A stretch of 64,000 nt of DNA from Betaproteobacteria bacterium (GTDB taxonomy: Bacteria > Pseudomonadota > Gammaproteobacteria > Burkholderiales > JACQAP01). A model generated the notes under the pieces. That model was given only the letters and a program-made list of their open reading frames with translations. It made no database searches and was not told the origin of the DNA. The stretch is taken from positions 426 to 64,425 of the forward strand of contig JBDTRK010000004.1 in NCBI GenBank assembly GCA_039931685.1, written 5' to 3'. The position numbers and the translations under genes were made by a program. Position 1 is the stretch's first letter, and each line of letters begins with the position of its first letter. This document shows positions 16,901 to 42,806 of this stretch, one piece after another.

Positions 16901-19900
16901 CCGATTGCTGGTGAGAACGGCCGCGTCGGCCCGCAGCGAGGCATTGGCGTAAATGATCGAACCGGCCAGCCGCCCGTAGAGTTGCGCGTCGGATTCGGTG
17001 CCATTGATCTGGCGCAGGTTCACCCAGCCGTGCGTCCAGGCCAGATCGAAAACGCGGTCGGCAAGATGCCGGTCCCGGTACTTGCCGACCAGGGCCAGGG
17101 CCGCGGCGTGCGTTTCGCCGATGCCGGAAACCACGTCGATCGTCGCCGCCTGGCCAGCATCGAGCGTTATGCGATGGCGGATGGCCACGATCGGATCGAG
17201 TACCGAACCCTCACTGCCGGACAAGGCTCCGGCGCGGGTCATCGCCTGCGGGGATTCGGTGGTGCGGGCACGACCGATGAATTGCATGCGATCCGTTTCA
17301 TACGACACCTCTCCGGTCTCGGCGCCATGCACCGCCATCAGGTGGAACATCGAGGGCATGTGCTCGTCGACCGAGCGAGGCCGGCGGGTACACAGGATCG
17401 CCTGCCGGTCGCGCAGTATTTCGGTCTGCACGAACAGGTTGCTGAAGGCCGGATGCAGCGCATCGGCGGCGGCCGGCGCGAGTACCACCTCGGCATAGCT
17501 GGTGATGTCCAGGGTACGGCGCGAATTCGAGCGGTTGGTGATGCGTATGCGGCGCAGTTCGATGTCGTCTTCGGGCGAAACGACGATTTCAGTATAGGTT
17601 TCGATATTGTGGTCGCGGCGGCGAAACTCGGCCCGCCCCTCGGAGAATATCGCCTCGTAGGCGTCCGCGCGCTTGAGCGTCGGCTGGTGCGCGTTCGACC
17701 AGAACTCCCCGCTCGCCACGTCGCGCAAGTAGCAGAATGCACCCCAGTTGTCGCAGGTGGTGTCTTCGCGCCAGCGCGTGACCGCGATGTCCTTCCAGCG
17801 GCTGTAGCCGCCGCCCGCGTTCGTCACCATGACGTGATAGCTGCCGTTCGACAGCAACTGCACCTCCGGGATCGCAGTATCCGGGCTCGCAATCACGCGC
17901 ACCGGCATTTCCGGACCCGTCGAGCGCGCGTGGATGTCGAACAGGCCAGCGGTGCTCGAATGAAAAACCGCGGGCTTCGGAATCCGCTCCTGCAGCAGCA
18001 GCATCGTCGCCTGGAACAGCGGCTCCGAGGCGAATCGCTTCTGCATCGGGCTGTCGAGAATGAGCCGCCCCAGGGCCAGCAGGATCATGCCCTGGTGATG
18101 CGACATGAACGAACGCACGACGGCGCTCGATTGGCCGCGAGGCAGGCGCGACGGCGTGTAGTCGATCGCCTCGTAGAAACCGTATTTACCCTCGAATCCC
18201 GCGGCTGCGAGCCGCAGCAGGTTCTCGCACGCCGCCTCGGGCGAAACCATCAGCGCAAGCGCCGAGGCGTAAGGCGCGATGACCAGATCTTCGGTCAATC
18301 CGCGTTTGAGACCGAGACCGGGCACGCCGAAGGCGCGGTACTGGTAGTTGAGTCCGGTGTCGACCAGGTTATAGCCCGATTCGGACATGCCCCAGGGCAC
18401 GCCGCGCTGGTTCCCATAGGCAATCTGGCGCTGCACCGCCGCGCGGCAGGTCTGGTCGAGCAGCGTGTCTTCGTACCCCGGCATCACCAGCAACGGCATC
18501 AGGTACTCGAACATCGAACCGCTCCACGACAGCAAGGCCGGCTCGCCGCCGGTGCTGGTGAGCATGCGTCCGAGCGCAAACCAGCTTTCCTCCGGCAGTT
18601 TTCCCTGGGCGATTGCCACGAAGCTGGAAAAACGCGCTTCCGAGGCCAGCAGATCGTAATCGCTCGAATCGCGCCGGCCTTCGGTCACGTTGTAGCCGAT
18701 GGCCAGCAGGCGGCGCGCGTGGTCGTAGAGGAAGTCGTACTCCATGTCGGCGAACTCGCCCGCTTGCCTCGCGAGTTCCTCGATCTGCCCGATCCTCGCC
18801 TGCGCGCGACGGCCGGTCTCGTCATCGCGCGTTGCCAGCTCGCGCAACGTCGGAATGCCGCCGGACTCCGGCAGCGCGCGCGCCGTGCCGGGAAAGAACA
18901 ATGCAATTTCGTCGAGCGCGTCGCGGCTTTGCCGCTCGAGGGCTTGCGCCCAGTCCTGCGCCGCTGGCGCGGACGCGCCGTCGGCAGCGGCAATTTGCGC
19001 CGCGCGACTGGCGAGCTTCTCGACGAGCGTCCTCGCGGACTGCAGCGTAGTCGGGGCGAACTGCAAATCGGGCACCGAATCGTTTCCGGATAGGACGTCG
19101 TTCAGCAGGCTGGAGGTATCGCTCAAACCCTCGAACCATCGTGGCGCCAGGATCCTTGCGTCGCAAAGCGCGAGCAACCCCGCGCGCAGCGTAAGCAGAT
19201 AGCCGGCTAGGTTGCCGCTGTCGACCGACGAAACATACAGCGGCGCCAGCGGCTTCAGCGAGCTCGTGTCGTACCAGTTGTAGAAGTGGCCCTGGAAGCG
19301 CTCCAGCATCTGCATCGTGCGCAGCGTGTTCGCGGTGCGCTCGATCAACCGTCCAGCCGTGATATAACCGAAGTCATACGCGGAAAGACTCGCGAGCAAC
19401 GAGAACCCGATGTTGGTTGGCGAGGTGCGGTGCGCGAGCACGGCGGCGGGATGTTCCTGGTAATTGTCCGGCGGCAGCCAATGGTCCTCGGGACCGACGA
19501 AGCGCTCGAAGAACACCCACGTCTTGCGGGCAAGCTTGCGCAGAAAAGCCGTATCGAGACTCGTGAGCCTGGGCTCGCGGCGGGCACGCGGCTGACCGAG
19601 CCACCATGCGATGGCGGGAGAAGCAAACCAAAGCATGAGGACGGGCCCCGCCACGGCCAGCGCGGCGGGATTGTAGGCGCCGAGTTCAATTGCCGTGACG
19701 CAGGCGATCACCGGGGCGAACCACATCGAACGATACGATGCCGCAAGCTCGCTGCGTCCCTGCGCACGGCCTCGATTCTGTTCGCTCGACGCCGTCCATT
19801 CCAGCAATCCGGTCCGGGTCACCAGTACGCGCACCATCGTGCGCCCGATCGCGAGAACGCTGTAGAACGCCTCGTAGGGCAGACACGCCAGGGCGAACGC

Positions 19901-22615
19901 GGCCTGGGCGAAGTTGTGTCCGGTCGAACGCGTTGCCACCGCGAGATGGCGCCCCAACGGAGCGCCGACCGGTCTGATGGCAAACTCCAGCACCGAGGCC
20001 ATCGCGGCGGGAAACATGAGAATCGCCAACACCGACACTGTCCAGAACCAGGCCGGCGCCAACACCGTCCAGCCAGCGAGCAGCAGCAACACCGACGCCG
20101 CGGGCACGACACTACGCCGCAGGTTGTCGAAGATTTTCCATTGCGACAGGTACGACAGCGGGTTGGCGTGACGCCGCGTTGCGAGGGTGCCGCTGTCGGG
20201 AACGCGCGCGCGCAACCACTGGGCAATTTGCCAATCGCCGCGAATCCAGCGGCTGCGGCGGTTCACGTCCGCGATGTACCGGGACGGATATTCCTCGTAC
20301 AACTGCACGTCGCTCAGCAGTCCCGAGCGCGCATAACACCCTTCGAGCAGGTCGTGGCTGAGAATCTGGTTGTCGGGAAAGCGGTCCTTGAGGCAGCGCT
20401 CAAAGGCATCGACGTCGTAGATCCCCTTGCCGATGAACGAACCTTCGCCGAACAAGTCCTGGTAAACATCGGACACCGTGCGGGTATACGGGTCGATGCC
20501 CGGCTCGCTCCCGCACAGCCGTGCATAGCCCGACTGGCTGACACTGGGAAGACTGACGGCCAGGCGCGGCTGCAGGATGGCATAGCCCTCGGTTACGCGC
20601 TGCCGGCCCGCGTCATAGTGCGCGCGATTCAGCGGATGCGCCATGGCCGACACCAGTTGCCGCGCCGCGCCGCGCGGCAGTTGCGTATCGGTGTCGAGGG
20701 TGATGACGTATCTGACGTCCGCCAGTACACGTGTCTCGCCGACGACAAATGCGAAAAGATCTTTCGCGCCGCCACGCAGCAGTGCATTCAATGCCGCCAG
20801 CTTGCCCCGCTTGCGCTCGTAGCCCATCCAGCAGTGCTCCCGGGCGTTCCACAGGCGCGCGCGGTGGAACAGGAAAAAGCTGTCGTGGCCGTATTTGCGG
20901 TTCAAGTCCTCGACTCCGGTCCGGGCGAGAAGAGCGAGGGACGCATCGTCGGCAAGGGTCTCCCGGTCGGCGTCCCGATAGTCGGTGAGCAAGCCGAAAT
21001 GCAGGTTTTCGTCGCGATTGGCGAGATAGCGCACTTCAAGCGCTTCGATCAGATCCTCGATGTCGGCCGCACTGGTCAGCATGGCCGGGACCACAGCCAG
21101 CGTCCGAAATTGGTGTGGAATCCCTTCGGAGAAATCCAGTTTCGGTAGCGGGTACGGCGCCGCCAGGCTAGCGGCGACCCGGTTGACCAGCGTCACGGCC
21201 AGTTGGCTGGTGGCGATCAGCGCCAGTAAGCCGACCAGTGCCATCAGCATGGCTGGCACGGCGCCGGCTTGCGCGACGGCCATCAAACTCGCAGTCAACA
21301 TGGCGGACGTTAGCGCTATCGCGCCCAGGTACAGAAGTAACGGACACCTGCCGCCGGTTCTCAGCAAGCGTTCGACAACGGATAGCCGGACTTGCACCGC
21401 TCGCTCGAGCCGCGGCGTGCCCTTGTCGATCAGATAGTAGCCGACGTGCGTTGCGCGGGCATCAGCGTCGCCATCCGGAGCATGGCCGGCGCGCGCCTCG
21501 CGCCCCAGCCGGATCGCCTGGCGCGCCACATCGCCTTCAGACTGGCGGCTCTCTTTCGCCATCCGCTCGACCACGTGGCGGTAACGGTCGCGGGTGGCGA
21601 AATCCATCGTGCCGTACACCGCGTCCTGCCGCAGTTCGCGCTCGACGATCCCCATCGTCTCGACGAACTCGCGCCAATCCATTGCTTCCAGGAAACGCAG
21701 ACTGCCGATGCTGTTGCTCATCGACACCTGGTCGGCGGCTTGTTCCTGGGTTTCCGAATGCACCAACTGCTCGATGGTCAAGCCCGATTCGGACAACCGC
21801 TGCTCGATCCAGGTGAGCGGCAACGCCAACGCGCGGCTTTGCCCCTGCAGCCGGCGGACCAGCTCCGCGACGAACGAACTCACCATCGGCGGGTTGGAGC
21901 GGGCCATATCCGCGGTCAGCAGAATCAGGCTCTTCGGATCGTGCTCGGCGAGCTCCATCATCTGGTCCGCCCAGCGGCCAGCGCGGTTGCGCTCGTTCGT
22001 GCCGGCGGCAATCCGGGTCGCAACACGGCGCAGGTTTTCGATCAGCGCCAGGCGCAGCATGATCGGGATGGCCCACAATTCGCCCAGCTTCAGCGGAGTG
22101 ATCGTCTGGTAGGCGGTCACGAAACGTCGCAGGCTCTCCGGGTCCACCCGGCCATCGCCGTGGGAAATGGCCTCCAGCGCGATGTCATAGGCGCGGGGCA
22201 ATCCGGCAGACGGGCCATTCAGCAAGCGGGGCAGTTCGAGGCTGTAGGCCTTGGGCAGGTGTCGCTTGGCGGTGAGGACCTGCTCTTCGATCAGATAGAA
22301 ATTATCGAGCAGCCATTCCCCCGCCGGCGCAATGCTGCGGTTGGCGTCGAGCGCTGCCTTGATCAGGCTGCCCGTCTCGATCAGGACGCTTTCGTTGTCG
22401 GCAAGCCGCGCCAGAAGCCGGTCGCGCCTGCGGCGCGGACTCAGTTTGTGCCTGGCCGCCAGGATGCAGCCATGGCTTTCCATCTGGTCGGCGCTGAACA
22501 ACTCCGCGCGCAGCGGTGTCTCGGCGGTGGAATTGGCCAGGCCGGGCACGCGCCAGAGTTCCCACCAGCGCGTACGCTCCGATTGCATCAATTGCATCAA
22601 TTGCATCAATTGCAT
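13931..22615 (-). CDS. ndvB: cyclic beta-1,2-glucan synthase (NdvB/ChvB/Cgs type: N-terminal membrane region + GT84-like transferase + C-terminal GH94-like glucan phosphorylase)
   Basis: Single ~2,890-aa ORF. The N-terminus (LRAELFSADQMESHGCILAARH) is followed by TM segments, a glycosyltransferase core (VITLDTDTQLPRGAA...RWIRGDWQ) and a large C-terminal (alpha/alpha)6-type phosphorylase region ending in a conserved block (GGWTWYTGSAGWMYR). The start is ambiguous: TTG at 22621, or one of four ATGs at 22615, 22606, 22597 and 22588. Confidence 0.93.
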   Translation of the reverse strand: MQLMQLMQLMQSERTRWWELWRVPGLANSTAETPLRAELFSADQMESHGCILAARHKLSPRRRRDRLLARLADNESVLIETGSLIKAALDANRSIAPAGEWLLDNFYLIEEQVLTAKRHLPKAYSLELPRLLNGPSAGLPRAYDIALEAISHGDGRVDPESLRRFVTAYQTITPLKLGELWAIPIMLRLALIENLRRVATRIAAGTNERNRAGRWADQMMELAEHDPKSLILLTADMARSNPPMVSSFVAELVRRLQGQSRALALPLTWIEQRLSESGLTIEQLVHSETQEQAADQVSMSNSIGSLRFLEAMDWREFVETMGIVERELRQDAVYGTMDFATRDRYRHVVERMAKESRQSEGDVARQAIRLGREARAGHAPDGDADARATHVGYYLIDKGTPRLERAVQVRLSVVERLLRTGGRCPLLLYLGAIALTSAMLTASLMAVAQAGAVPAMLMALVGLLALIATSQLAVTLVNRVAASLAAPYPLPKLDFSEGIPHQFRTLAVVPAMLTSAADIEDLIEALEVRYLANRDENLHFGLLTDYRDADRETLADDASLALLARTGVEDLNRKYGHDSFFLFHRARLWNAREHCWMGYERKRGKLAALNALLRGGAKDLFAFVVGETRVLADVRYVITLDTDTQLPRGAARQLVSAMAHPLNRAHYDAGRQRVTEGYAILQPRLAVSLPSVSQSGYARLCGSEPGIDPYTRTVSDVYQDLFGEGSFIGKGIYDVDAFERCLKDRFPDNQILSHDLLEGCYARSGLLSDVQLYEEYPSRYIADVNRRSRWIRGDWQIAQWLRARVPDSGTLATRRHANPLSYLSQWKIFDNLRRSVVPAASVLLLLAGWTVLAPAWFWTVSVLAILMFPAAMASVLEFAIRPVGAPLGRHLAVATRSTGHNFAQAAFALACLPYEAFYSVLAIGRTMVRVLVTRTGLLEWTASSEQNRGRAQGRSELAASYRSMWFAPVIACVTAIELGAYNPAALAVAGPVLMLWFASPAIAWWLGQPRARREPRLTSLDTAFLRKLARKTWVFFERFVGPEDHWLPPDNYQEHPAAVLAHRTSPTNIGFSLLASLSAYDFGYITAGRLIERTANTLRTMQMLERFQGHFYNWYDTSSLKPLAPLYVSSVDSGNLAGYLLTLRAGLLALCDARILAPRWFEGLSDTSSLLNDVLSGNDSVPDLQFAPTTLQSARTLVEKLASRAAQIAAADGASAPAAQDWAQALERQSRDALDEIALFFPGTARALPESGGIPTLRELATRDDETGRRAQARIGQIEELARQAGEFADMEYDFLYDHARRLLAIGYNVTEGRRDSSDYDLLASEARFSSFVAIAQGKLPEESWFALGRMLTSTGGEPALLSWSGSMFEYLMPLLVMPGYEDTLLDQTCRAAVQRQIAYGNQRGVPWGMSESGYNLVDTGLNYQYRAFGVPGLGLKRGLTEDLVIAPYASALALMVSPEAACENLLRLAAAGFEGKYGFYEAIDYTPSRLPRGQSSAVVRSFMSHHQGMILLALGRLILDSPMQKRFASEPLFQATMLLLQERIPKPAVFHSSTAGLFDIHARSTGPEMPVRVIASPDTAIPEVQLLSNGSYHVMVTNAGGGYSRWKDIAVTRWREDTTCDNWGAFCYLRDVASGEFWSNAHQPTLKRADAYEAIFSEGRAEFRRRDHNIETYTEIVVSPEDDIELRRIRITNRSNSRRTLDITSYAEVVLAPAAADALHPAFSNLFVQTEILRDRQAILCTRRPRSVDEHMPSMFHLMAVHGAETGEVSYETDRMQFIGRARTTESPQAMTRAGALSGSEGSVLDPIVAIRHRITLDAGQAATIDVVSGIGETHAAALALVGKYRDRHLADRVFDLAWTHGWVNLRQINGTESDAQLYGRLAGSIIYANASLRADAAVLTSNRRGQSGLWGYAISGDLPIVLLQIGDSANIELVRQLVQAHAYWRLKGLAVDLVIWNEDHAGYRQLLQEQIMGLIAAGMTANLSDRPGGIFVRVAEQISSEDRTLFQTVARAIITDARGSLSDQISRRRSKERREASIPDLLPPRIRSGSKDRRVVSMPRLVPTRIRGVDATATMVLPRSDLLFFNGFGGFSADGREYVITTAPGQPTPAPWVNVIANAQFGTVISESGAAYTWSENAHEFRFTPWGDDPVSDSTGEALYIRDEESGYFWSPTPLPCAGSTPYVIRHGFGYSLFQHDEEGISSDLVVYVDAEAAVKFSVLKIRNNSGRPRRLSATGYVEWVLGDLRPKSAMHVVTEIDPSSGALCARNPYSPEFADRVAFFDANDATRTANVTFSGDRREFVGRNGTLRNPLAMGRSKLSNKVGAGLDPCAAIQVPFELEDGQEREIVFRLGAAGRQGSDDAGGLVQRLRGPEAARKSLETIRQFWIGALSVVQVQTPDPSLDVLCNGWLLYQTLACRFWARSGYYQSGGAFGFRDQLQDTMALVHAEPRLAREHLLRCAAHQFSEGDVLHWWHPPAGRGVRTHCSDDFLWLPEAVCRYVLNSGDASVLNESIHFIEGRPVNPEDDSYYDLPVRSRDSATLYQHCVRAIEKGLSFGVHGLPLMGSGDWNDGMNLVGMQGKGESVWLGFFLYRVLMQFAPLARTHGDSAFSERCQTQAAQLRANIEEHAWDGNWYRRAYFDDGTPLGSAANTECQIDSIAQSWSVLSGAGEPEHVRLAMNSLDQRLVRRDHRLIQLLDPPFDKSPLNPGYIKGYVPGVRENGGQYTHAAIWAVMAFAELGDNARAWELFNLINPVNHANSAKAIATYKVEPYVVAADVYAVSPHTGRGGWTWYTGSAGWMYRLILESLLGLRREAGTLRFAPCLPADWAGFTLRYLHGQTVYRIAVVNARDGTGPTRVTVDGVEQRDQAIALVDDHREHTVEVRIHPTPALGA
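22581..22615 (-). repeat. 9-bp tandem repeat (ATGCAATTG x ~3.9) at the 5' end of the glucan synthase gene
   Basis: Plus strand reads gattgcatc aattgcatc aattgcatc aattgcat. The coding strand reads ATG CAA TTG ATG CAA TTG ATG CAA TTG ATG CAA, giving MQLMQLMQLMQ. Confidence 0.95.
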
Positions 22616-22821
22616 GGGCAAGCGGGATCGCCCCGTGAAAACCAGTGAATGAAAAAAACTGCAACGCGGCAGTTGCGGCTATCGGGCGCACAGACTTCGG
22701 CGCTGGCCCGGCGAGCTCGAACAGCCCGTGCCATGATGCCGTTGTCGCGCATTTCGCTCTGTGCACTATCGAACATACGGCACGCGCGTTTGTATTTTCG
22801 GGCCGGGCGATTTGCACCCGC

Positions 22822-28932: not shown

Positions 28933-30051
28933 CTATGGCTTGCCCCGCTCTGGAAATGGAATTGAAAGCGTGACGGACGTGCCTTTGCCATCGATGCCCT
29001 CGATCTCGACCCGACCTCCCAGGATATGCGCGCGCTCCTTGACGCCAACCAGTCCCAGTGATTTCGGGCTGCGCAAGTCTGTCTGTGCAATTCCCCGGCC
29101 ATTGTCGACGATTTTCAGTATGAGTTGATCGGCATCCAGCCGCAACTTAATGTCGACCCGCGTCGCTTTGGCATGGCGCGCCACGTTGGTCATGACCTCC
29201 TGGAAGATCCGGAAAACGGCGGTAGACCGCGGCTGGTCCATGACGAATTCCTCTTCCGGCAAATCCACCTTACAGCGGATGCCTGTGCGCGCCTGAAATT
29301 CCCTGGCCTGCCATTTCAGGGTACCCGTGAGTCCGACATCGTCGAGCACCTGAGGTCTGAGTTCCGAGGAAATCTTGCGCACGGATTGAATCGTTTCGTC
29401 GATGAGCCGGAACATCGATTTCACCTTCTCGGCCTGCTCTTCGAGTCCCTTGGGCAGTCTTTTCTCCAGCCACGACAAATCCATCTTCAGCCCGGTCAGC
29501 GCCTGTCCCAGTTCGTCGTGGATCTCGCGCGCCATGCTGGTTCGCTCCTCTTCCCGGACGGCCTGTATGTGCGCGGCGAACTCGCGCAGCCTTTCTTCCG
29601 ATTCGCGAAGGTTCTGCTCGATCACCTTGCGCTCGGCGATTTCCCTGCCGAGTTCCGCGTTGTAGCGGTAAAGATCGGCGAAGACCGATATTTTCGATCT
29701 GAGGATCTCAGGCACGAGAGGCTTCAGCAGATAGTCCACGCCCCCCACTTCATAGCCCCGGAAGCTGGAAACCGCGTCGTCGTAGCTGCCCGATAAGAAT
29801 ATGATCGGCGTATGTCGCGAGCGTTCGCATTGCCGGATCAACCTGGCAGTCGCGAAGCCGTCCCGGTCCGGCATCCGTACGCTCAGCAGAATGACGGCAA
29901 AATCGACCTGCGTCGCGTGGCGCAAGGCCTCCTGCGCATTACCTGCGGTCGTGATCTCCACGTCCAGGCTTGCGACGATTTCGCGGCACTCCCGCAGCGC
30001 CGAGGCGTCGTCTTCGACGATCAGGATATTTGGTTTTGACAGGCTGGACAT
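28933..30051 (-). CDS. receiver-HisKA_3-HATPase hybrid kinase (N-terminal REC)
   Basis: N-terminal receiver (ILIVEDDASALRE...VILLSVRMPDRDGF...IIFLSG), a coiled linker, a HisKA_3 H-box (REIHDELGQALTGLKMDL) and HATPase boxes (EVMTNVARHA, DNGRGI, SLGLVGVKERA). Confidence 0.9.
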   Translation of the reverse strand: MSSLSKPNILIVEDDASALRECREIVASLDVEITTAGNAQEALRHATQVDFAVILLSVRMPDRDGFATARLIRQCERSRHTPIIFLSGSYDDAVSSFRGYEVGGVDYLLKPLVPEILRSKISVFADLYRYNAELGREIAERKVIEQNLRESEERLREFAAHIQAVREEERTSMAREIHDELGQALTGLKMDLSWLEKRLPKGLEEQAEKVKSMFRLIDETIQSVRKISSELRPQVLDDVGLTGTLKWQAREFQARTGIRCKVDLPEEEFVMDQPRSTAVFRIFQEVMTNVARHAKATRVDIKLRLDADQLILKIVDNGRGIAQTDLRSPKSLGLVGVKERAHILGGRVEIEGIDGKGTSVTLSIPFPERGKP

Positions 30052-30861
30052 GGCGGCGCTCGCCGGATCCCATCGGCAGGTGACGTTGCAGGACTGATGA
30101 CAATATCACGCGGGAGGCATGTTTCCGTTCGAGGTTGCGTCGCCTTGCGGCGCATCGACCGCAAATCGAAGTTCATCCGGGCAAGCGTACCGGCGTATCA
30201 GTCCAGCCACAACGCGAGTCTGGAAACGCCGGACCGTGCATCGCAGACCGGCTTGCGATCTTGCGATGCGGCGACCCGACACCTACCGCGGCTTCATGCG
30301 ATGTGAATGCCGCAATTGCAGGTGAAGCGATTCACTTGCACGCCCTTCCCTGCCTCGCCTGCACGGACCGGCCCCCGCATCGGGGCCAGGCCATGAGCTT
30401 GTCAATCGCGCCGACGGGCTCGCCCCTCGACGACGTCCCGCCGTAGTCATCGCCTCTCCCAAAAATTTCGCCAGGCCACTTCGCGTCCGGCCCGGCTCGG
30501 GCGCGCTTTGCGCGACAACGAGTTGAGCCGGGCTGCAGCGCTCAAGTTCCCGATTGCCAACCGCACAGGGTCTGGGACCTTGCCCGGCCGACAACGCTAA
30601 CCCCCTCTCGCACATCAGCAATTTATCGCTCTCGGGACGAACAAGGCGCCCTGTCGTTCAAGCCAGACAGCTTTTTGTGAGCGCAAACAACGGTCTCAAT
30701 GAATATGGGCATCAGTTGTCGCCCTGACACTACATCTCTGTAGTGGTTAATCTACACTCCTCCATCTATCCATCTATTTATAAATGACTTTCTGAAGCGG
30801 CATGCGTCTTGCAGACAGATGCAGTGAAGCAAATTTTGCTCACTCATTTGGAGGTTCGATC

Positions 30862-32229
30862 ATGGACTGCAATATCGCCTTGCCAGTACTTCATAGTAGC
30901 GGTGATCCCGGTGGCTTCATACGTAACAACCCTGAGCGTCACGCTGCAAGTTCTTCGGTCGCCGCCTATCGGACTCGCGCACTTCATTCGGCTTCTGTCG
31001 GGATTCTCCTGGTCGGCATCTCGTTGATCGCCGCGTGCGGGAGCGGCGGCGGCGGCTCGGATGCGAGTGCGGCTGCAGGTAAGAATCGCGGTGGCGGTGG
31101 AACAGCCTCGACGACCGTCCCTAGCACGACACCAACCACAACCCCAACCACAACCCCAACCACTACCCCAACCACTACCCCGACCGGCACCGCTACCACT
31201 CGCGACGTGCTCCAGCAGCCTTTCGCGGTCACCAGCATTTGGAACATGCCGATCGGCAGCAACGCCGTCTATGTGCCCGCAAACATACCGGCGATTCCCT
31301 ACAGCCCGAATGAATGGGCACCGATGCCGGTCATTGACAGGGAAATCATCGTCCTCACGCCGACCGCGCCGCTGACAAATATCTACTACAGCAGCGCGGC
31401 CTGGACCGGAGCCAACCGTTGTGCCCCTACCGGCAGCATGATTTTCCAGTTGCCTATCCCGAGCAACTTTGTCGTCCCCAACGCACCCGGCAATGGAAGC
31501 GCGGCGTTCCTCAAGGCGGATGGACGCACCCTGGTTCAGACGCAGCCGTTTACGCGCTGCACCGCTGGCGCATCGGGAACTTCGCTTACCGACGCGTCCA
31601 GTTTTCCTGAGGTCGATCTCCATGGCGACGGCATCCGCGGTTCTCATGGCGGCTCGGGACTATCGGCAATTGGCGGGTCCATCCGCGTGGGTGAACTGCG
31701 CCCCGGAAGCAAGGGACCGGCACACGCCCTCAAGGTGGCTGTCGACTCGCCACAGGTTCTCTTCGCGTGCACGACCGCCAGCCAGTGTTTCCGTTGGCCG
31801 GCGGATAGAGCCGACGGTGGTGCCGTGGGCTCTTACGGCAGGCTCCGCCCCAGCAACAGCAGCGCAATGAAGATGGGCGCGCTGCTCGCCATCCCGGCCT
31901 CGACGAACCTGTCAAACCTGGGCCTGGAGACGGAACCAGGAAAGCAGCTCGCCTGGACGCTGCAGAACTACGGCGCTTACATCGACGACAGCACGGGCGG
32001 TCCAGCCGTAGTCATCAACGCCGAGGACGGCTATCACGGATCCGTGATAACGCAGTTCCAGAACGATTGGGGCTTCCCGATGGAACAACGCGTGAACAGC
32101 AACTCGCCGTGGTCCCGCGACATGCAACGTTTGATGACGGCGCTTTATGTTGTGGACAATAACAGCCCAACCACCATTGGCGGCGGCGGCACGCCCCTTC
32201 AGCCTCTTGCCGCGGCGTTGAGCAACTGA
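30862..32229 (+). CDS. secreted lipoprotein with Thr/Pro linker and uncharacterised ~330-aa C-terminal domain
   Basis: The ATG at 30862 is preceded by TGGAGG. Signal/lipobox: GILLVGISLIAAC followed by GSGGGG. The linker is (TTTP)n. The C-terminal domain has enzyme-like conserved-looking blocks (HGGSGLSAIGGSIRVGEL, FRWPADRADG) that I cannot assign to a family. Confidence 0.7.
   Translation: MDCNIALPVLHSSGDPGGFIRNNPERHAASSSVAAYRTRALHSASVGILLVGISLIAACGSGGGGSDASAAAGKNRGGGGTASTTVPSTTPTTTPTTTPTTTPTTTPTGTATTRDVLQQPFAVTSIWNMPIGSNAVYVPANIPAIPYSPNEWAPMPVIDREIIVLTPTAPLTNIYYSSAAWTGANRCAPTGSMIFQLPIPSNFVVPNAPGNGSAAFLKADGRTLVQTQPFTRCTAGASGTSLTDASSFPEVDLHGDGIRGSHGGSGLSAIGGSIRVGELRPGSKGPAHALKVAVDSPQVLFACTTASQCFRWPADRADGGAVGSYGRLRPSNSSAMKMGALLAIPASTNLSNLGLETEPGKQLAWTLQNYGAYIDDSTGGPAVVINAEDGYHGSVITQFQNDWGFPMEQRVNSNSPWSRDMQRLMTALYVVDNNSPTTIGGGGTPLQPLAAALSN
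31129..31184 (+). repeat. 12-bp tandem repeat encoding (T-T-T-P)n linker
   Basis: aca cca acc aca acc cca acc aca acc cca acc act acc cca acc act acc ccg acc. About 4.5 in-frame copies of ACN-ACC-CCA-ACC. Confidence 0.9.
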
Positions 32230-34717: not shown

Positions 34718-34753
34718 CTGTTTCTCCAAGATGGAACACACGGAAATGAAATC

Positions 34754-37588: not shown

Positions 37589-38583
37589 ACCTGCAGCCCT
37601 TCCTGGCCGAACTGTACAGTCGCAATATTCAGCTCTGGGCCGACGGCGACCGCCTCAGGTGCAAGGCGCCAACGGGTGTACTCACGACCACCCTGCGCGA
37701 CCAGTTGATAGAGCGCAAGGGCGAGATCCTGGCGCTTCTGCGCAGCGCCGAGGCCGTTTCCAGCCAGCCGCGGGCGATCGTTCCGCTTCAACCGGGGGGC
37801 GATCGCACGCCAATTTTTGCGGTCGCCGGCCACAATGGCGACGTCTTCGCCTATCGCGCCCTGGCGTTCCACCTCGGTAAAGATCAGCCGTTCTTCGCAC
37901 TCGAGCCACCGGGACTCGATGGCGACAGCGAACCGTTGCAGCGGGTCGAGGACCTCGCCGACTATTTTGCCGCGCAGATCCAGGCATTTCAGCCTGACGG
38001 CCCCTACATCATTGCCGGCTATTGCGCGGGCGGCACGATTGCCTTCGAACTGGCCCGCCAGTTACGGGCGCGTGGCGCAACGATCCAGCTTCTGGCCCTG
38101 ATTGCCTCGCCGTACCCGACGTCCTTTCGCGTTGCGGCGCGTATGCAACAGGCTGTCGTGCACCAGGTGGCGCGCATCGTCCGGCATGTCCGTTCGTTGC
38201 GACGGCTGTCATTCCTGGAATCTATTCGGTACATAAGCGCGAAATTTCGCCGGCGCAGTCTACTGCGCGACGCCGAGCACGCTGCATCGCTGGATCCCGT
38301 TCTGGCGCGGCGCGACGACGTGGCGCGCACTACGATTGCGGCGCTGCGCCGTTACACGCCGGAGCGTTATTCCGGGCGTGTAGGCCTTTTGTTGCCCAAC
38401 AGGCAATGGTTGCGCTCAGGCGCCGCCCCCTTGCATTGGCGATCCGTAGCGCCACACGCCGAGCATTACTTCGGTCCGGACGGCTGCAATCCGGACCTCC
38501 TGTTGGTCGATCCGGACGCCCCCGCCATTGCCGATCTGTTCAGGCGGTGCCAGGAAGGCAAGCCGGCGGAGGCCTCGCCGTGA
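37585..38583 (+). CDS. TubC-N-type docking domain fused to a thioesterase with a Cys nucleophile (GYCAG)
   Basis: The N-terminus (FLAELYSRNIQLWADGDRLRCKAPTGVLTTTLRDQLIERKGEILALL) matches the TubC N-terminal docking pattern. The alpha/beta-hydrolase TE has the nucleophile elbow IIAGYCAGGTIAFELA (TGC at 38023-38025). The start overlaps the NRPS stop as ATGA. Confidence 0.8.
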   Translation: MNLQPFLAELYSRNIQLWADGDRLRCKAPTGVLTTTLRDQLIERKGEILALLRSAEAVSSQPRAIVPLQPGGDRTPIFAVAGHNGDVFAYRALAFHLGKDQPFFALEPPGLDGDSEPLQRVEDLADYFAAQIQAFQPDGPYIIAGYCAGGTIAFELARQLRARGATIQLLALIASPYPTSFRVAARMQQAVVHQVARIVRHVRSLRRLSFLESIRYISAKFRRRSLLRDAEHAASLDPVLARRDDVARTTIAALRRYTPERYSGRVGLLLPNRQWLRSGAAPLHWRSVAPHAEHYFGPDGCNPDLLLVDPDAPAIADLFRRCQEGKPAEASP

Positions 38584-38945
38584 ATAGCGTGCGATCGGCG
38601 CACCCAATGCATATTTGCGCGGCATGGCCAGAAGGCACTGCTGCCGCACATCCGGGCATTGCGCATCTCCAAGCGTCCCCGCCTGAGCAGCGCCGTAGAC
38701 CAAATGGACCAGCAGCCCGCGGATCGCCCAGGTACCGCGCTTAACGCTGCATCGCCAGACTATCGACCTATGAGCAAAGAAGAAAATGTGGTCCGGACCC
38801 GTGGCGGCGCCGATCCACCTCGCTTTTTGCGGCAAGCGACGCCGAGCCTGTTCGCCCGGACGGGCCGCGGTGCAATGTGTAATCCAGAGCTCGCGCCTGC
38901 GGTCGATTCATCTGGCGGCGTCATCGCACAGAATTCGATGACGTC

Positions 38946-40100
38946 ATGAAAATCTGCCTGCTCGGCCTGCATAACCTGTCTGTCCTGGCACCGGAATTCA
39001 AAAACCACACTGTGGGTGGCGAACCGGTCCAGCAGACATTGCTGGCAAGGGCGCTCGCGCGTCGAGGGCATGATGTAAGCATGGTCGTTGCTGATTATGG
39101 CCAGGAGGACGACCTGGAATGCAGGGCCATACGACTGTTCAAGGCCTATCGCCTCGATGCGGGCATACCGGTGCTGCGCTTCGTGCATCCCCGCTGGACC
39201 AGATTGTGGTCGGCACTGATGCGGGCGGATGCCGAGCTCTATTACACGAGTTGCGCAGGCATGGAGGTCGGCCTGCTCGCATTGTTCTGCCGGTATTTCG
39301 GCAAACGGTTCGTATTCCGCAGCGCAAGCGATGCGGACTGCGACAAATCGCGCCTGCTCGTCAGACACGCGCGCGATCGTTGGCTCTATGCCTATGGCCT
39401 GCGGCGGGCGGATGCCATCCTGGTACAGAGCGCCTCCCAGGCGCAAGCCTTGTTGCGCAGCTATGGATTGGCGAGCCGGATTGCGGGAATGCTGGTCGAG
39501 CATCCGCGGTCGCCCCCCCCCCATGACCTGGACGTGTTGTGGGTCGGCAACATTCGGGGCGTAAAGAGGCCGGACCGGGTTCTCGAACTTGCAGCGAAAC
39601 TGCCGCAATTCAATTTTCACATGGTCGGGGGCCCCCTGTCCGGCGACGAAGCGCTCTATGAGGCGGTGCGGGATGCGGCAGCGACAAGGACCAATCTGAC
39701 CTTTCATGGCCGCCTGTCGTATGGGGACGCCAACGATCTGTACGATCGGGCAAAGCTGCTGGTCAATACTTCCGATGTGGAGGGTTTTCCGAATTCGTAT
39801 CTGCAGGCCTGGATCCGGGGCGTGCCCGTAGTAACGCTCATCGATCCTGACCGCGTGATTGAGCGCGAAGGTCTGGGCGTCGCTGCAAGTTCACCGGACG
39901 GGCTCTCCAGGGCCATCGGTGCCCTGCTTGGGTCGCCGACAGCCTGGCAGGCGGCCAGCGATCGCTGCAGGTATTTCATGGCGCGGGAATTCGGCGAAGA
40001 TAAAATTCTGACCGCCTACCTTGAGACATTCGATGACGTCATGCGGTCCCGACCGCCCAACGCCCGGAATTTCCCGACAAGCGAGGCACCCCGTGCCTGA
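38946..40100 (+). CDS. GT4-family (group 1) glycosyltransferase
   Basis: MKICLLGLH...GGEPVQQTLLARALARRGHDVSMVV, with a C-terminal GT-B region (NTSDVEGFPNSYLQAWIRGVPVV). It contains the C10 tract. Confidence 0.85.
   Translation: MKICLLGLHNLSVLAPEFKNHTVGGEPVQQTLLARALARRGHDVSMVVADYGQEDDLECRAIRLFKAYRLDAGIPVLRFVHPRWTRLWSALMRADAELYYTSCAGMEVGLLALFCRYFGKRFVFRSASDADCDKSRLLVRHARDRWLYAYGLRRADAILVQSASQAQALLRSYGLASRIAGMLVEHPRSPPPHDLDVLWVGNIRGVKRPDRVLELAAKLPQFNFHMVGGPLSGDEALYEAVRDAAATRTNLTFHGRLSYGDANDLYDRAKLLVNTSDVEGFPNSYLQAWIRGVPVVTLIDPDRVIEREGLGVAASSPDGLSRAIGALLGSPTAWQAASDRCRYFMAREFGEDKILTAYLETFDDVMRSRPPNARNFPTSEAPRA
39513..39522 (+). repeat. homopolymeric C10 tract inside the GT4 coding sequence
   Basis: tcg ccc ccc ccc cat encodes S-P-P-P-H. 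I counted ten consecutive C directly in the sequence. Confidence 0.95.
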
Positions 40101-41190
40101 GACCCCTTTCATCATCACGGTCGATACGGAGGGCGACAATCTCTGGGAAAAACCACGAGAAATTACCACCCGCAATGCGGCCTACCTGCCTCGCTTCCAG
40201 TTGCTCTGTGAGCGGTTCCACTTCAAACCTGTCTATCTGGTGAATTATGAAATGGCGATGTCGGACGTATTTGTCGAGTTCGGACGCGATGTCGTATCCC
40301 GCGGTGCCGGCGAAATCGGCATGCATCTGCACGCCTGGAACTCGCCGCCGCTTGAGCCGCTGACCCGCGACGATTTCTTTCATCAACCCTTTCTGATCGA
40401 GTACCCGGACCGGATCATGAGCGAAAAAATCCACACCATGACCCATCTGCTCGAGCACAAGTTCGATCGCAAAATGATCAGCCATCGCGCGGGGCGCTGG
40501 GCGTTCGACGGCCGGTATGCGGCGATGCTGATCGACGAGGGTTATCTGGTCGACTGCTCCGTGACGCCGGGCGTCGACTGGAGCGCCACACCGGGTGATC
40601 CGGAGGGCAATGGCGGCACGGACTACACTTCATTTCCCGACAGCCCATACTTACTCAGCCCGGTCGATATTTCGGTTGCGTCAGCCGGACCAATGCTCGA
40701 GGTGCCCATGACGGTCTTTGCGAGCAAACTCTTCCAACATTCGCCCTGGGTTTATCGGGTGCCCGGTTTGGCCCGGGCCGCCCGGCGAATATCTCCGCAG
40801 CGACGCTGGCTGTGCCCGGTTGCACTTCTGGAAAAGCACAACCACGATGCCATGCTGCAACTCGCCCGCAGAGCACGCGATGAACCTCCGACCCATATGG
40901 AATTCATGCTGCACTCCTCGGATCTCATGCCGGGCGGCAGCCCGAGCTTCAAGAACGCATCAGACATCGACGGTTTGTACGATCGCCTGGAAACGCTGTT
41001 CGACAAATTATCAATGTGGTGCCGCGGGATGACGCTCGCGGAGTTCCGGGAACACTGGATGAAGGCGCCGAATAAAACGCGATTAATCGGGCTCGGCGAA
41101 CAGCAAAGCAATCGGGTGGCCAGATCAATGGAAGTGAGAAAGTCCACGACCGGCCCGGCCCCGGTGGAAAAAGGCAGCGTACCGGGATGA
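40093..41190 (+). CDS. polysaccharide deacetylase-like / glycoside hydrolase-deacetylase barrel superfamily protein
   Basis: FIITVDTEGDNLW...GMHLHAWNSPP...EFMLHSSDLMPG resembles CE4-like barrel proteins from EPS loci. GTG at 40093 overlaps the GT4 stop by 8 nt; ATG at 40021 is an alternative. The family call is moderate. Confidence 0.55.
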   Translation: MPETPFIITVDTEGDNLWEKPREITTRNAAYLPRFQLLCERFHFKPVYLVNYEMAMSDVFVEFGRDVVSRGAGEIGMHLHAWNSPPLEPLTRDDFFHQPFLIEYPDRIMSEKIHTMTHLLEHKFDRKMISHRAGRWAFDGRYAAMLIDEGYLVDCSVTPGVDWSATPGDPEGNGGTDYTSFPDSPYLLSPVDISVASAGPMLEVPMTVFASKLFQHSPWVYRVPGLARAARRISPQRRWLCPVALLEKHNHDAMLQLARRARDEPPTHMEFMLHSSDLMPGGSPSFKNASDIDGLYDRLETLFDKLSMWCRGMTLAEFREHWMKAPNKTRLIGLGEQQSNRVARSMEVRKSTTGPAPVEKGSVPG

Positions 41191-41975
41191 TCCGCATCGA
41201 GGGGACGGGCGCGATTTACGGGGAAGTATGGTACGACGAAGAACCGCCCCGGAATTCCGGAGTGGATATCGTCCGCTATCGCTGCAGACACGCCGCTATC
41301 GCGAATGCCCGCCATTCTCCGTTTCTGTCGTTGGTCACGGATCTTTGCGCAGAGGCCAATGCCATCGCCGACCAGTTCGGCAAGGATTGCCGGTACAAAG
41401 TCCGGCGCGCCGACACGAAGGATGAACTGGACACGGAATTCATCCTGGAACCGGAGAACCGGCTGGACGAATTCGGCGAATTCTTCGACACGTTCGCTCG
41501 TCAAAAGGGGCATGAAGCCTGCGATCGGCAATGGTTGCGCGCTGCATGCAAAGCCCGCCAGCTCGTCCTCACGACGGCGACCCGGCACGGCGAGGCGCTG
41601 GTGTGGCACGCCTATGTCATCGCTGGAAATTCGACCTGGTTGCAGTACACCGGATCCTGTTTCCGCAATCGAGAAAGCGATTACCGCGCCCTCGTCGGCC
41701 GGGCCAATCGTTGGCTGCACTGGAAAGACATGCTGCGGTTCAAGGAACTGGGAATGCTCCGCTATGACTGGGGCGGAATGTTCGAGGACGAATCGACCCC
41801 GGACCGCGCCGGGATCAACGAATTCAAAAGAACCTTTGGCGGACGGCTTGCGCGAACTTACGATTGCACGGTCCCGGTGACCCTCAAAGGCCGGATCTAT
41901 CTTCCGCTTCGCGACGCGTGGCGCAGCCGAAAGACCATTCTTCCCGGCCGAAAAGAAGTTGCCGCAGGAGCCTGA
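41187..41975 (+). CDS. FemAB-like / GNAT-fold (Acetyltransf_6-like) protein
   Basis: 262 aa. KDCRYKVRRA..., WHAYVIAGNSTWLQYTGS..., ANRWLHWKDMLRFKELGMLRYDWGG and INEFKRTFGG resemble FemAB-family / BioF2-like N-acyltransferases found in PEP-CTERM-type EPS loci. The start overlaps the upstream stop as ATGA. Confidence 0.55.
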   Translation: MIRIEGTGAIYGEVWYDEEPPRNSGVDIVRYRCRHAAIANARHSPFLSLVTDLCAEANAIADQFGKDCRYKVRRADTKDELDTEFILEPENRLDEFGEFFDTFARQKGHEACDRQWLRAACKARQLVLTTATRHGEALVWHAYVIAGNSTWLQYTGSCFRNRESDYRALVGRANRWLHWKDMLRFKELGMLRYDWGGMFEDESTPDRAGINEFKRTFGGRLARTYDCTVPVTLKGRIYLPLRDAWRSRKTILPGRKEVAAGA

Positions 41976-41981
41976 CCGCGT

Positions 41982-42806
41982 TCAGGGAAGAATCCCTTGC
42001 AGCCGCCCCGCGGACACCGCGCGCGGCGTCACGCCGCGGATCACGCGGGCGTGAATGACCGATGAGGGCTTTCCGAAAGCAGAGTGATAGTTGGCGAGTT
42101 TGAGGTAGCAACCCTGGTCCGGATATAGCGTAGGCCCGCGGTATGCCATCTTCCGCGCGCCATTGACCCATGCATCGAAAAAGCCATCGGCTTGCGATGT
42201 CCACTTCACGTGGTAAATGAAGTGGTACCAGACATTCTTCACGACCGGGCCGATGGGCGCGTTGTAGAGCGTCGGCCTGACCTGGTTGCCGTAAGCGATC
42301 TGGAAACTGAGGCCGGTAGGACGGTCGGGCGATGCCGCGCTGGCGGGCATCGCGTTCACCTGGAAATTGGCCTGTCCGCCACCGGGTCTGGCATTGTGGA
42401 AATCGGCGACGACGCCCCAGTTCCACGAAGACGCCGTGCTTTCGGGCGGGTCAACGTAGTCGGCGGGGAACAGAATCGAGTGTGCCCACCAGGCCTCTTT
42501 GCCCTCGTAGCAGTCGGTCGTCGCCTGGTCGAGGGTAAGATCGTTGCGCTCGGCGGCGCGGCTTCCATAAATGCTGCTGTCTCCAGGTTCCGTATGCAGG
42601 CGCACGCCGCGCATTCCGGCGACATCCACGAGCGACGCGCGGCCCGCCACTTTCGACTGTTCTGCGAATCCGCAATCCTTTGGCGAGCTCTCGAATAAAC
42701 AGGAAAATTCGATACTGGGCACCGCGATCTCCCGAACGTTCCTGTCGGCAGCCGACACGACCAAAACGAGCGTGAGCAAGAAGGCTGCAAGAAATTTCGA
42801 GCGCAT
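41982..42806 (-). CDS. secreted polysaccharide lyase-like jelly-roll protein
   Basis: Signal peptide MRSKFLAAFLLTLVLVVSA. Blocks RAAERNDL, WWAHSILFPADY, VVADFHN, GFFDAWVNG and YLKLANYH resemble the 'Polysaccharide lyase' (heparin lyase I / glucuronan lyase-like) family. ATG at 42806; the ORF-track start is 43049. Confidence 0.65.
   Translation of the reverse strand: MRSKFLAAFLLTLVLVVSAADRNVREIAVPSIEFSCLFESSPKDCGFAEQSKVAGRASLVDVAGMRGVRLHTEPGDSSIYGSRAAERNDLTLDQATTDCYEGKEAWWAHSILFPADYVDPPESTASSWNWGVVADFHNARPGGGQANFQVNAMPASAASPDRPTGLSFQIAYGNQVRPTLYNAPIGPVVKNVWYHFIYHVKWTSQADGFFDAWVNGARKMAYRGPTLYPDQGCYLKLANYHSAFGKPSSVIHARVIRGVTPRAVSAGRLQGILP

What the first reader, a model, noticed from the sequence alone, without database searches (positions are those of the whole stretch)
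39513..39522. C10 homopolymer inside a GT4 glycosyltransferase gene: candidate slipped-strand phase-variation switch
The GT4 gene 38946..40100 contains ten consecutive C (TCG CCC CCC CCC CAT, encoding S-P-P-P-H).
- The ORF track shows the +1 alternative frame ending at 39526 (TGA within ccatgacc).
- The other alternative frame ends at 39564, so a gain or loss of one C truncates the enzyme within 1-14 codons.
- Even in a GC-rich genome a run of 10 is long. The next longest runs I noticed are 7-8 nt.
- Long homopolymers in surface-glycan transferases are the classic contingency-locus mechanism in Neisseria, Haemophilus and Campylobacter.
- This mechanism is rarely described for environmental EPS loci.
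Basis: partly seen in the sequence, partly recalled or inferred. Interest (0 to 1): 0.65.

Follow-up and report, generated by a model that had tools for sequence, protein, structure and literature searches.

The report
Fixed C10 run in EPS glycosyltransferase
A real run of ten cytosines sits in the flexible linker of a soil bacterium's sugar-transferase gene and could in principle switch the gene off by slippage, but every copy found in nature has exactly ten Cs, so it looks like a young, incidental frameshift hot spot, not a proven switch.

Summary
C10 lies at 39513..39522 in a 384-aa GT4 glycosyltransferase gene (38946..40100) within a large polysaccharide locus. C11 stops one codon after the tract and C9 stops 13 codons after it. 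The run is the longest homopolymer in the window and goes against a clear avoidance of G/C runs in the window's genes.

The switch interpretation gains no positive support.
- The tract encodes P190-P192 in the interdomain linker, the most variable internal segment of the protein.
- None of 133 orthologues has a run longer than 5 there. The nearest relative (89% aa) reads GCT CCC GCC.
- All ten same-species copies read exactly C10 in frame. These are the window, a JGI contig, a second MAG and Logan contigs from seven soil, sediment and rhizosphere metagenomes.
- No C7, C8, C9, C11, C12 or C13 product exists in an exact look-up of 15 billion proteins.
- Raw reads were not available, so minority variants within populations remain untested.

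Best reading (about 0.7): a young, lineage-specific homopolymer in an unconstrained linker. It is mechanically frameshift-prone but is kept ON by purifying selection. A true contingency switch remains possible (about 0.15). Interest is low to moderate.

The parts
39513..39522 (+). C10 homopolymer (G10 on the template strand). It covers codons P190, P191 and P192 plus the first base of H193.
   Evidence: Read directly. It is the longest run in the window. The identical run is present in L055, L136, L137 and Logan contigs of X1-X5, X7 and X12.
38946..40100 (+). GT4 (GT-B fold) glycosyltransferase gene, 384 aa. It is the conserved first gene of a GT4-hyp365-hyp262 triad.
   Evidence: Pfam N- and C-domain hits lie above the cut-offs. 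There are 133 orthologues at 47-89% identity. The triad is conserved in 102 and 88 of 133 loci. The motif E279-X7-Q287 is invariant in 131 of 131 orthologues.
39501..39521 (+). Interdomain linker, codons H186-P192. It is the most variable internal segment of the protein and tolerates indels in orthologues.
   Evidence: Mean column entropy is 2.61 bits against a protein mean of 1.03. The flanks A180-E185 and D194-N202 are nearly invariant. The Pfam domains end at 179 and begin at 194. An alignment to SenB places residues 184-193 just before the first strand of the C-domain.
39524..39526 (+). TGA stop reached after the gain of one C (C11, also C8). The product is 193 aa.
39562..39564 (+). TAA stop reached after the loss of one C (C9, also C12). 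The product is 205 aa.
40093..41190 (+). Conserved 365-aa protein with no known family. Its GTG start overlaps the GT4 stop by 8 nt, so a premature stop in GT4 would probably also lower its expression (inference).
   Evidence: Sequence. The JGI gene call in L055 agrees. There is no Pfam or NCBIfam hit. It co-occurs with the GT4 gene in 102 of 133 loci.
41187..41975 (+). Conserved 262-aa protein with a weak GNAT/FemAB-like resemblance. Its ATG overlaps the preceding stop (ATGA).
   Evidence: Acetyltransf_6 at E 0.0012 and FemAB at E 0.019, both below the cut-offs. It co-occurs with the GT4 gene in 88 of 133 loci.

Best explanation
The C10 run is a real but incidental homopolymer that arose recently in this species. 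It formed through three point substitutions (an ancestor like GCT CCC GCC became CCC CCC CCC) in the poorly constrained Pro/Ala-rich linker between the two Rossmann-like domains of a conserved exopolysaccharide GT4 glycosyltransferase.

Like any C/G run of this length, it must be a hot spot for one-base slippage during replication. Each slip truncates the enzyme after the N-terminal domain. It probably also weakens expression of the two translationally coupled downstream genes.

These null variants appear to be removed by purifying selection, because the populations sampled in nature all carry the in-frame C10 allele. On this reading the tract is a mutational liability, or at most a latent switch, and not an evolved contingency locus.

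Shown: the tract, its position, its consequences in silico, its absence from orthologues and its invariance among samples. Inferred: elevated slippage, polarity on the downstream genes, and purifying selection as the reason for the invariance.
For: - Location. The tract lies in the most variable internal segment of the protein (2.61 bits against a mean of 1.03), between nearly invariant flanks and with indels among orthologues. It falls between the Pfam domains and just before the first strand of the C-domain.
- No orthologous tract. None of 133 orthologues has a run longer than 5 at this site. The nearest relative, L056 (89% aa), reads TCG GCT CCC GCC CAT, and the next nearest read GCG CCG ACG.
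- No family tendency. G/C runs of 8 or more are no more frequent in GT4 orthologues than in the flanking DNA.
- Invariance. The tract is C10 with zero gaps in the window, L055 (JGI metagenome), L136 (second MAG, GCA_046593555.1), L137/X2, X1, X3 and X4, X5 and X7 and X12; L055, L136 and L137 were read directly. These come from soil, sediment and rhizosphere samples of different studies.
- No variant products. An exact look-up of the predicted C7, C8, C9, C11, C12 and C13 products among 15 billion proteins found none.
- Comparator in a Burkholderiales with real homopolymer phase variation. In Bordetella, essentially every C/G tract of 9 or more differs in length among three very close species (PMC1891110, Table 1).
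- Comparator across species. Coding poly-C runs of 9 bp have a mean pairwise variability of only 0.15 across 42 species, so most such runs are not variable (PMC3315296).
- Chance. Given the PPP tripeptide and 27% CCC usage, CCC CCC CCC has about a 2% chance. Synonymous shuffles give a run of 10 or more in 3% of trials for the GT4 gene and 8% for the window.
Against: - The window's genes clearly avoid G/C runs (runs of 5: 27 observed against 58.9 expected; runs of 6: 4 against 14.6). A C10 in a conserved gene is therefore an exception that needs either youth or selection to explain it.
- All three substitutions that created it went towards C, and CCC is not the preferred proline codon (CCG 53%, CCC 27%).
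- The gene class (surface-glycan transferase) is the classic one for contingency loci.
- A sister strain has a second long run, C11, in an intergenic region 9 kb upstream. This hints that long poly-C tracts may be commoner in this species than in its relatives.
- The same-species GT4 sequences differ by only 0-0.26%, so they are not deeply independent lineages.
- Contig-level data cannot show minority OFF subpopulations.
Confidence: 0.7

Rival explanations
1. The tract is a genuine contingency locus. Reversible slipped-strand gain or loss of one C switches the GT4 gene (and, by polarity, hyp365 and hyp262) OFF and ON. This produces EPS-altered subpopulations as a bet-hedge, for example against phages or grazers that recognise the polysaccharide. 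The ON state dominates in the environments sampled so far.
For: - The tract length of 10 exceeds the more-than-8 C/G threshold (PMC1891110).
- Both one-base changes stop translation within 1-13 codons of the tract, before the catalytic C-domain.
- The locus is a large polysaccharide cluster with four GT4 genes, a GT2, a UDP-glucose dehydrogenase, a Wzy_C-type protein and lyases.
- The tract runs against strong general avoidance of G/C runs and uses the non-preferred CCC codon three times.
- Strain L136 carries a second poly-C tract (C11) in an intergenic region of the same locus.
Against: - There is no length polymorphism in ten same-species copies from at least nine samples.
- No variant products are on record.
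- No orthologue has a repeat at this site.
- Only one coding tract was seen in 64 kb.
- In Bordetella, tracts of this size almost always differ between close relatives (PMC1891110).
Confidence: 0.15
2. The selected feature is the tri-proline peptide, not the DNA repeat. A rigid PPP linker, or an EF-P-dependent translational pause between the two domains, would benefit folding or domain spacing. The homopolymer would be a by-product of codon choice.
For: - It is the only PPP in 35 window genes.
- It sits exactly between the two domains.
- Orthologous linkers are generally Pro/Ala-rich, for example PPPPPAP in L018.
- PPP motifs stall ribosomes and need EF-P. This rests on established knowledge and was not tested here.
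Against: - PPP is not conserved. The nearest relatives have A-P-A, A-P-T or V-P-T.
- Positions 190-192 have entropies of 2.5-3.0 bits.
- Other Pro-rich orthologous linkers use mixed codons, so nothing requires CCC three times.
Confidence: 0.1
3. The run is a sequencing or assembly artefact: a homopolymer miscall, and the true gene has a shorter or mixed tract.
For: Long-read MAGs of related species (L009, L047) show frameshifts in this gene, so such errors do occur in this kind of data.
Against: The identical C10 is found in independent short-read-derived contigs from seven runs, a JGI contig and another MAG. The reading frame is intact across it.
Confidence: 0.02

Closest known systems
Helicobacter pylori futA/futB alpha-1,3-fucosyltransferase poly-C tracts (Lewis-antigen phase variation; e.g. 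PMC2806470, PMC2583950)
   Same: Both have a poly-C run of about 10 or more inside the coding sequence of a surface-glycan glycosyltransferase. A change of one C frameshifts and truncates the enzyme.
   Different: - The H. pylori tracts vary in length between and within strains, and the switching has been shown experimentally.
- The enzyme belongs to another glycosyltransferase family (GT10, from my own knowledge), and the organism is host-restricted.
- Here the tract is invariant in all copies and absent from orthologues.
Neisseria lgtA/lgtC/lgtD/lgtG and Campylobacter jejuni wlaN/cgtA poly-G/C tracts in LOS glycosyltransferases
   Same: Both involve a homopolymer within a glycosyltransferase ORF, with ON/OFF control by slipped-strand mispairing.
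   Different: Those genomes hold many such loci. Their tracts are conserved as repeats but differ in length among strains. Neither property was found here.
Bordetella homopolymeric tracts (fim2/fim3/fimX promoters, tcfA, bapC, bvgS; Gogol et al. 2007, PMC1891110)
   Same: Bordetella belongs to the same order as the window's nearest relatives are labelled (Burkholderiales) and is GC-rich. Its C/G tracts longer than 8 exceed chance expectation, and some lie in coding sequences of cell-envelope genes.
   Different: In Bordetella nearly all C/G tracts of 9 or more are length-polymorphic among three very close species, and several vary within single cultures. Here there is no polymorphism among ten copies. 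The organism is a free-living soil or sediment bacterium, not a pathogen.
Mycobacterium tuberculosis and M. bovis homopolymer frameshift variants (e.g. ESX-1-associated and frd tracts; PMC11898584, PMC12263978)
   Same: Both concern a GC-rich genome with a short C/G run in a coding sequence that acts as a reversible frameshift hot spot.
   Different: The variants there were observed directly in populations under selection. No variant has been observed here.

Membership tests
Simple-sequence contingency locus (phase-variable gene) | A repeat tract long enough to be hypermutable, within an ORF or promoter | tested here: met
   C10 at 39513..39522 lies inside the ORF. The threshold used for Bordetella is C/G longer than 8 (PMC1891110).
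Simple-sequence contingency locus (phase-variable gene) | Gain or loss of one repeat unit switches expression (frameshift to a truncated product) | tested here: met
   In silico, C9 gives 205 aa and C11 gives 193 aa. Both lack the C-terminal domain.
Simple-sequence contingency locus (phase-variable gene) | Tract length differs among strains or populations of the species | tested here: not met
   All ten same-species copies read C10 with zero gaps. No variant products are on record. This is a consensus-level test only.
Simple-sequence contingency locus (phase-variable gene) | Length heterogeneity within a population, with high-rate reversible switching | not testable with these tools
   All 19 runs are kept as Logan contigs and none as raw reads. 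No RNA runs were found.
Simple-sequence contingency locus (phase-variable gene) | The repeat is retained, with varying length, at the orthologous site in related species | tested here: not met
   Across 133 orthologues the longest run at the site is 5. The nearest relative reads GCT CCC GCC.
Simple-sequence contingency locus (phase-variable gene) | The genome carries several such tracts, more than chance expects | tested here: inconclusive
   There is only one tract in 64 kb. A sister strain has an extra intergenic C11. The rest of the genome was not available.
GT4 glycosyltransferases (GT-B fold, retaining) | Two Rossmann-like domains matching the Pfam Glyco_transf_4 and Glycos_transf_1 models | tested here: met
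   PF13439 scores 40.6 bits (cut-off 28.5), PF13579 40.7 (29.7), PF00534 50.4 (26.4) and PF13692 52.5 (27).
GT4 glycosyltransferases (GT-B fold, retaining) | The E-X7-E motif in the C-terminal domain | tested here: inconclusive
   The motif reads E279-GFPNSYL-Q287. The second Glu is replaced by Gln, invariantly in 131 of 131 orthologues. This marks a distinct subfamily. Catalytic competence was not tested.
PEP-CTERM/XrtA (exosortase-associated) EPS locus | Locus genes reach the curated cut-offs of the XrtA-associated NCBIfam models, and an exosortase is present | tested here: not met
   TIGR03108 (503.8 against 816.9), TIGR03088 (146.9 against 409), TIGR04063 (80 against 442) and TIGR03097 (54.8 against 188) all fall below their cut-offs. 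No exosortase was found among the proteins scanned.

The most novel reading that the evidence does not exclude
An uncultured, free-living soil and sediment betaproteobacterium uses a poly-C contingency tract to switch a conserved exopolysaccharide module (GT4 plus two coupled proteins of unknown family) off and on. The ON state is the majority state in bulk samples, and OFF cells form a small bet-hedging fraction, for example against EPS-targeting phages. This would extend pathogen-style slipped-strand phase variation of glycan transferases to environmental EPS loci.
Probability: 0.13. Interest if true: 0.55.

Novelty: new member of a known kind. Interest (0 to 1): 0.27.

Why it matters
If the tract did switch, it would be a rare documented case of slipped-strand phase variation of an EPS glycosyltransferase in a free-living soil bacterium. 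That would bear on phage-host dynamics and biofilm heterogeneity in soils.

As the evidence stands, its main value is cautionary. A long homopolymer in the right kind of gene is not enough to call a contingency locus. Comparison with orthologues and with many natural populations shows a young tract, fixed in frame, in an unconstrained linker.

It is also a practical warning. This site will generate false frameshifts in long-read assemblies of this species.

Tried and rejected
- A pattern scan of JGI metagenome contigs for the two flanks with a 5-16 nt gap, meant to catch any tract length, found nothing. The protein-based scan that followed gave 80 loci, the closest at 89% aa identity and all without the tract at this site.
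- No raw-read runs exist for this sequence. All 19 runs are held as contigs, so read-level C9/C10/C11 counts were impossible. No RNA runs hold the gene.
Laying X1, X2, X5 and X12 on the window's version of that region showed only the window allele in X1 and no coverage of the site in the other three runs.
- Contigs of several low-depth runs (X6, X9, X13, X19) stop 7-26 nt before the tract. I considered this a possible sign of heterogeneity. I rejected it because a length polymorphism would break k=31 unitigs at the far end of the tract (about 39521), not before it. Gaps of this kind also occur all along the gene at 2-4x depth.
- The single-sequence AlphaFold2 model was useless (mean pLDDT 37, pTM 0.23), so no fold search was run. 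The linker assignment rests on Pfam boundaries, the SenB alignment and conservation.
- The promoter and terminator scan of 38400..42200 was uninformative.
- It would draw on the same few assemblies that had already been inspected directly.
- Programmed ribosomal frameshifting or transcriptional slippage as a way to make an alternative protein was rejected. Both alternative frames stop within 1-13 codons of the tract.

Full report
**1. The observation**

The window reads ...GAG CAT CCG CGG TCG CCC CCC CCC CAT GAC CTG..., with ten C at 39513..39522. The run lies in frame in the ORF 38946..40100 (384 aa).

Pfam places a GT4 N-terminal domain at residues 28-179 (Glyco_transf_4, Glyco_trans_4_4). 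A group-1 C-terminal domain lies at residues 194-328 (Glycos_transf_1, Glyco_trans_1_4). All four hits are above their cut-offs.

The two other frames stop at 39524..39526 (TGA) and 39562..39564 (TAA). In silico, C11 and C8 give products of 193 and 192 aa, C9 and C12 give 205 and 206 aa, and C7 and C13 stay in frame. Any one-base slip therefore removes the whole C-terminal, nucleotide-sugar-binding domain.

**2. Is the run more than chance?**

- It is the longest homopolymer in the window. The next are T8 and G/C runs of at most 7.
- A first-order Markov model expects about 0.13 G/C runs of 10 or more per 64 kb.
- In about 0.9 Mb of homologous loci from other species (mean GC 63%), G/C runs fall off about 4-5-fold per added base: 116, 28, 6 and 1 for lengths 6-9. 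None reaches 10. That implies about 0.02 per 64 kb, or one to two per genome.
- Synonymous-codon shuffling of 35 window genes gives a G/C run of 10 or more in the GT4 gene in 3.3% of trials and anywhere in the window in 8%.
- Real genes are depleted in G/C runs of 5 (27 against 58.9 +/- 6.6) and of 6 (4 against 14.6 +/- 3.7). No shuffle out of 500 was as low. This agrees with the general under-representation of poly(C) and poly(G) in prokaryotic genes (PMC2831843).

The C10 is thus a real outlier against a background of avoidance. It is not so improbable that selection must be invoked, because a reader scanning a window will always pick its longest run.

**3. The run is real DNA**

The identical C10 with identical flanks occurs in several independent assemblies:
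- a JGI metagenome contig, L055, 100% identical over 5 kb;
- a second MAG, L136 (GCA_046593555.1), 97.5% identical over 11.9 kb;
- Logan contigs of seven runs from different studies and habitats: X1 (sediment), X2/L137 (soil), X3 and X5 (rhizosphere), X4, X7 and X12 (sediment). All span the tract with zero gaps.

Many of these contigs are the length of a single 151-nt read, so a long-read homopolymer error is excluded.

**4. Where the run sits in the protein**

Across 129 orthologues, residues 186-192 form the most variable internal 7-residue window (2.61 bits against a protein mean of 1.03). Only the C-terminal tail is more variable. Insertions and deletions occur among orthologues. The flanks A180-E185 and D194-N202 are nearly invariant.

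An alignment to the solved GT-B enzyme SenB starts at residue 184 and puts DVLWVGN at the first strand of the C-domain. The tract therefore encodes the interdomain linker. A single-sequence AlphaFold model was too poor to add anything (pLDDT 37).

**5. Comparative evidence**

I collected 54 orthologous loci from species-representative genomes and 80 from metagenome contigs. Most are soil Burkholderiales or betaproteobacterial MAGs and Steroidobacteraceae MAGs, with a few Bradyrhizobium. Identity to the query ranges from 47% to 89%.

At the aligned site the longest homopolymer in any of 133 orthologues is 5.

| Orthologue | Codons at the site | Peptide |
|---|---|---|
| L056 (nearest, 89% aa) | TCG GCT CCC GCC CAT | S-A-P-A-H |
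| next nearest (about 75-84%) | mostly GCG CCG ACG (also GTT/GTC CCC ACC/ACG) | mostly A-P-T (also V-P-T) |
| L018 (Pro-rich) | CCT CCG CCG CCG CCC GCG CCG | mixed codons |

The tract is therefore derived in this species. Measured against the L056 codons, it needs two Ala-to-Pro changes and one synonymous T-to-C change.

In the window's genes CCC makes up 27% of Pro codons and CCG 53%. This is the only PPP tripeptide, and it holds the only two CCC-CCC pairs out of 33 Pro-Pro pairs.

**6. Population evidence**

Every same-species copy is C10 and in frame (section 3). I also asked whether the exact predicted products of C7, C8, C9, C11, C12 and C13 alleles exist among about 15 billion predicted proteins. 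None does. The 90% cluster holds only two full-length 384-aa members.

Two caveats apply.
- The copies are close relatives at this gene. The window and L136 differ at three bases of the GT4 gene (two codons, both nonsynonymous). The 38.0-42.5 kb block differs by only about 0.2%, while the flanking 33-38 kb differs by 4-8%. The observations are independent samples but not deep lineages.
- Contigs report the majority allele only. No raw reads and no RNA runs are available.

Even so, true contingency tracts usually differ in modal length between independent populations. In Bordetella, essentially all C/G tracts of 9 or more differ among three species that have fewer than 1 indel per 10 kb, and several vary within one culture (PMC1891110, Table 1 and abstract). 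Conversely, across 42 species the mean pairwise variability of coding poly-C runs of 9 bp is 0.15 (PMC3315296), so most such runs are stable at consensus level. Ten out of ten identical copies fits the stable class far better.

**7. Context**

The gene belongs to a large surface-polysaccharide region.
- Upstream lie a PPTase, an acyl-CoA dehydrogenase, an NRPS-like adenylation-FkbM methyltransferase-carrier protein and a thioesterase with a TubC docking domain.
- Downstream lie two translationally coupled conserved proteins without a family. The second is weakly GNAT/FemAB-like.
- Further on come polysaccharide lyases, three more GT4 genes, a nucleotide-sugar dehydrogenase, an asparagine-synthase-type amidotransferase, a heparinase II/III-like protein, a PMT_2-type membrane transferase, a GT2 and a Wzy_C protein.

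The GT4-hyp365-hyp262 triad is the conserved core (102 and 88 of 133 loci). The GT4 stop overlaps the GTG start of hyp365 by 8 nt, and the hyp365 stop overlaps the ATG of hyp262. A premature stop at the tract would therefore probably be polar (inference). The XrtA/PEP-CTERM NCBIfam models are hit only below their cut-offs, so I do not file the locus there.

**8. Interpretation**

What is shown: a real C10, in a dispensable-sequence linker, unique to this species, invariant in all samples, and with frameshift consequences that would abolish the enzyme.

What follows from established knowledge: a C/G run of 10 slips orders of magnitude more often than ordinary sequence, so OFF mutants must arise.

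What is not shown: that they persist, revert or are useful.

The most economical reading is a young, incidental homopolymer that selection keeps in frame (0.7). A contingency switch with a strongly favoured ON state is not excluded (0.15). A protein-level reason for PPP, such as linker rigidity or EF-P pausing, is possible but unsupported by conservation (0.1). An artefact is excluded (0.02).

**9. Novelty and score**

At best this would be a new member in an unusual ecological setting. With no positive evidence of variation and two defining features tested and not met, interest is low to moderate (0.27).

The decisive test is read-level or UMI-amplicon counting of C9, C10 and C11 in the samples that carry the organism, followed by a reporter fluctuation assay.

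Noticed in passing
L136:1507-1517 (corresponds to window about 30420-30440, intergenic between 28933..30051(-) and 30802..32229(+)): A sister strain (MAG GCA_046593555.1) has a C11 run (GGGCGCCCCCCCCCCCGCAAC) where the window reads GGG-----CTCGCCCCTCGAC. The site lies in a divergent (about 9-15%) intergenic region between a hybrid response-regulator/histidine-kinase gene and a Thr/Pro-rich protein gene. That makes two poly-C tracts of 10 or more within 9 kb in that strain, against none in 0.9 Mb of other species.
   Followed up: partly
window 33000-38000 versus 38000-42500: Strain divergence is mosaic between the window and L136. The PPTase/ACAD/NRPS-like/thioesterase genes differ by 4-8%. The GT4-hyp365-hyp262 block differs by only about 0.2% (10 mismatches in 4.5 kb), and the GT4 gene has 0 synonymous and 2 nonsynonymous codon differences. 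This suggests recent exchange or a sweep of this block.
   Followed up: partly
window 39780-39806 (E279..Q287 of the GT4): The GT4 signature E-X7-E reads E-GFPNSYL-Q. The Gln is invariant in 131 of 131 orthologues, within a fully conserved TS(D/E)xEGFPNxYLQAW block. This marks a distinct GT4 subfamily with no equivalog-level NCBIfam model.
   Followed up: partly
window 31125-31185, inside ORF 30802..32229 (+): An in-frame tandem repeat CCAACC / CCAACCACAACC (4.5 copies of 12 nt, 95% matches) lies in a 475-aa protein with no family and only a weak mucin-like hit. It is a likely Thr/Pro-rich linker of variable length.
   Followed up: no
window 22582-22615: A perfect 9-nt tandem repeat (ATTGCATCA x 3.8) lies at the extreme 5' end of the 2896-aa GH94 (cyclic beta-1,2-glucan synthase-like) ORF 13931..22621 (-).
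   Followed up: no
window 32712-38583 and 41187-41975: An NRPS-like set (PPTase, acyl-CoA/acyl-carrier dehydrogenase, adenylation-FkbM methyltransferase-carrier protein, thioesterase with TubC docking domain) sits directly upstream of the GT4 triad. The same arrangement occurs in the nearest relatives (L001, L002, L003, L005, L009, L047, L050). A weakly FemAB/GNAT-like protein lies downstream. Together these suggest an aminoacyl or acyl decoration of the polysaccharide.
   Followed up: partly
window, 35 predicted genes: G/C runs of 5 and 6 are two- to four-fold rarer in coding sequence than in synonymous-codon shuffles (27 against 58.9, and 4 against 14.6; 0 of 500 shuffles as low). Codon choice in this genome avoids G/C runs.
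   Followed up: yes
L009:6954-7002 and L047:6001-7148: The two closest species-level relatives (82-84% aa) are MAGs, presumably long-read assemblies. Their GT4 orthologues are broken by one (L009) or several (L047) frameshifts, none at the linker. These are most likely assembly errors and not pseudogenes.
   Followed up: partly
L006:5779-5786, L088:874-881, L089:1779-1786: Three related loci (about 70% aa to the query) share a G8 run exactly 222 nt upstream of their GT4 start. The length is the same in all three (with GT4 match positions).
   Followed up: no
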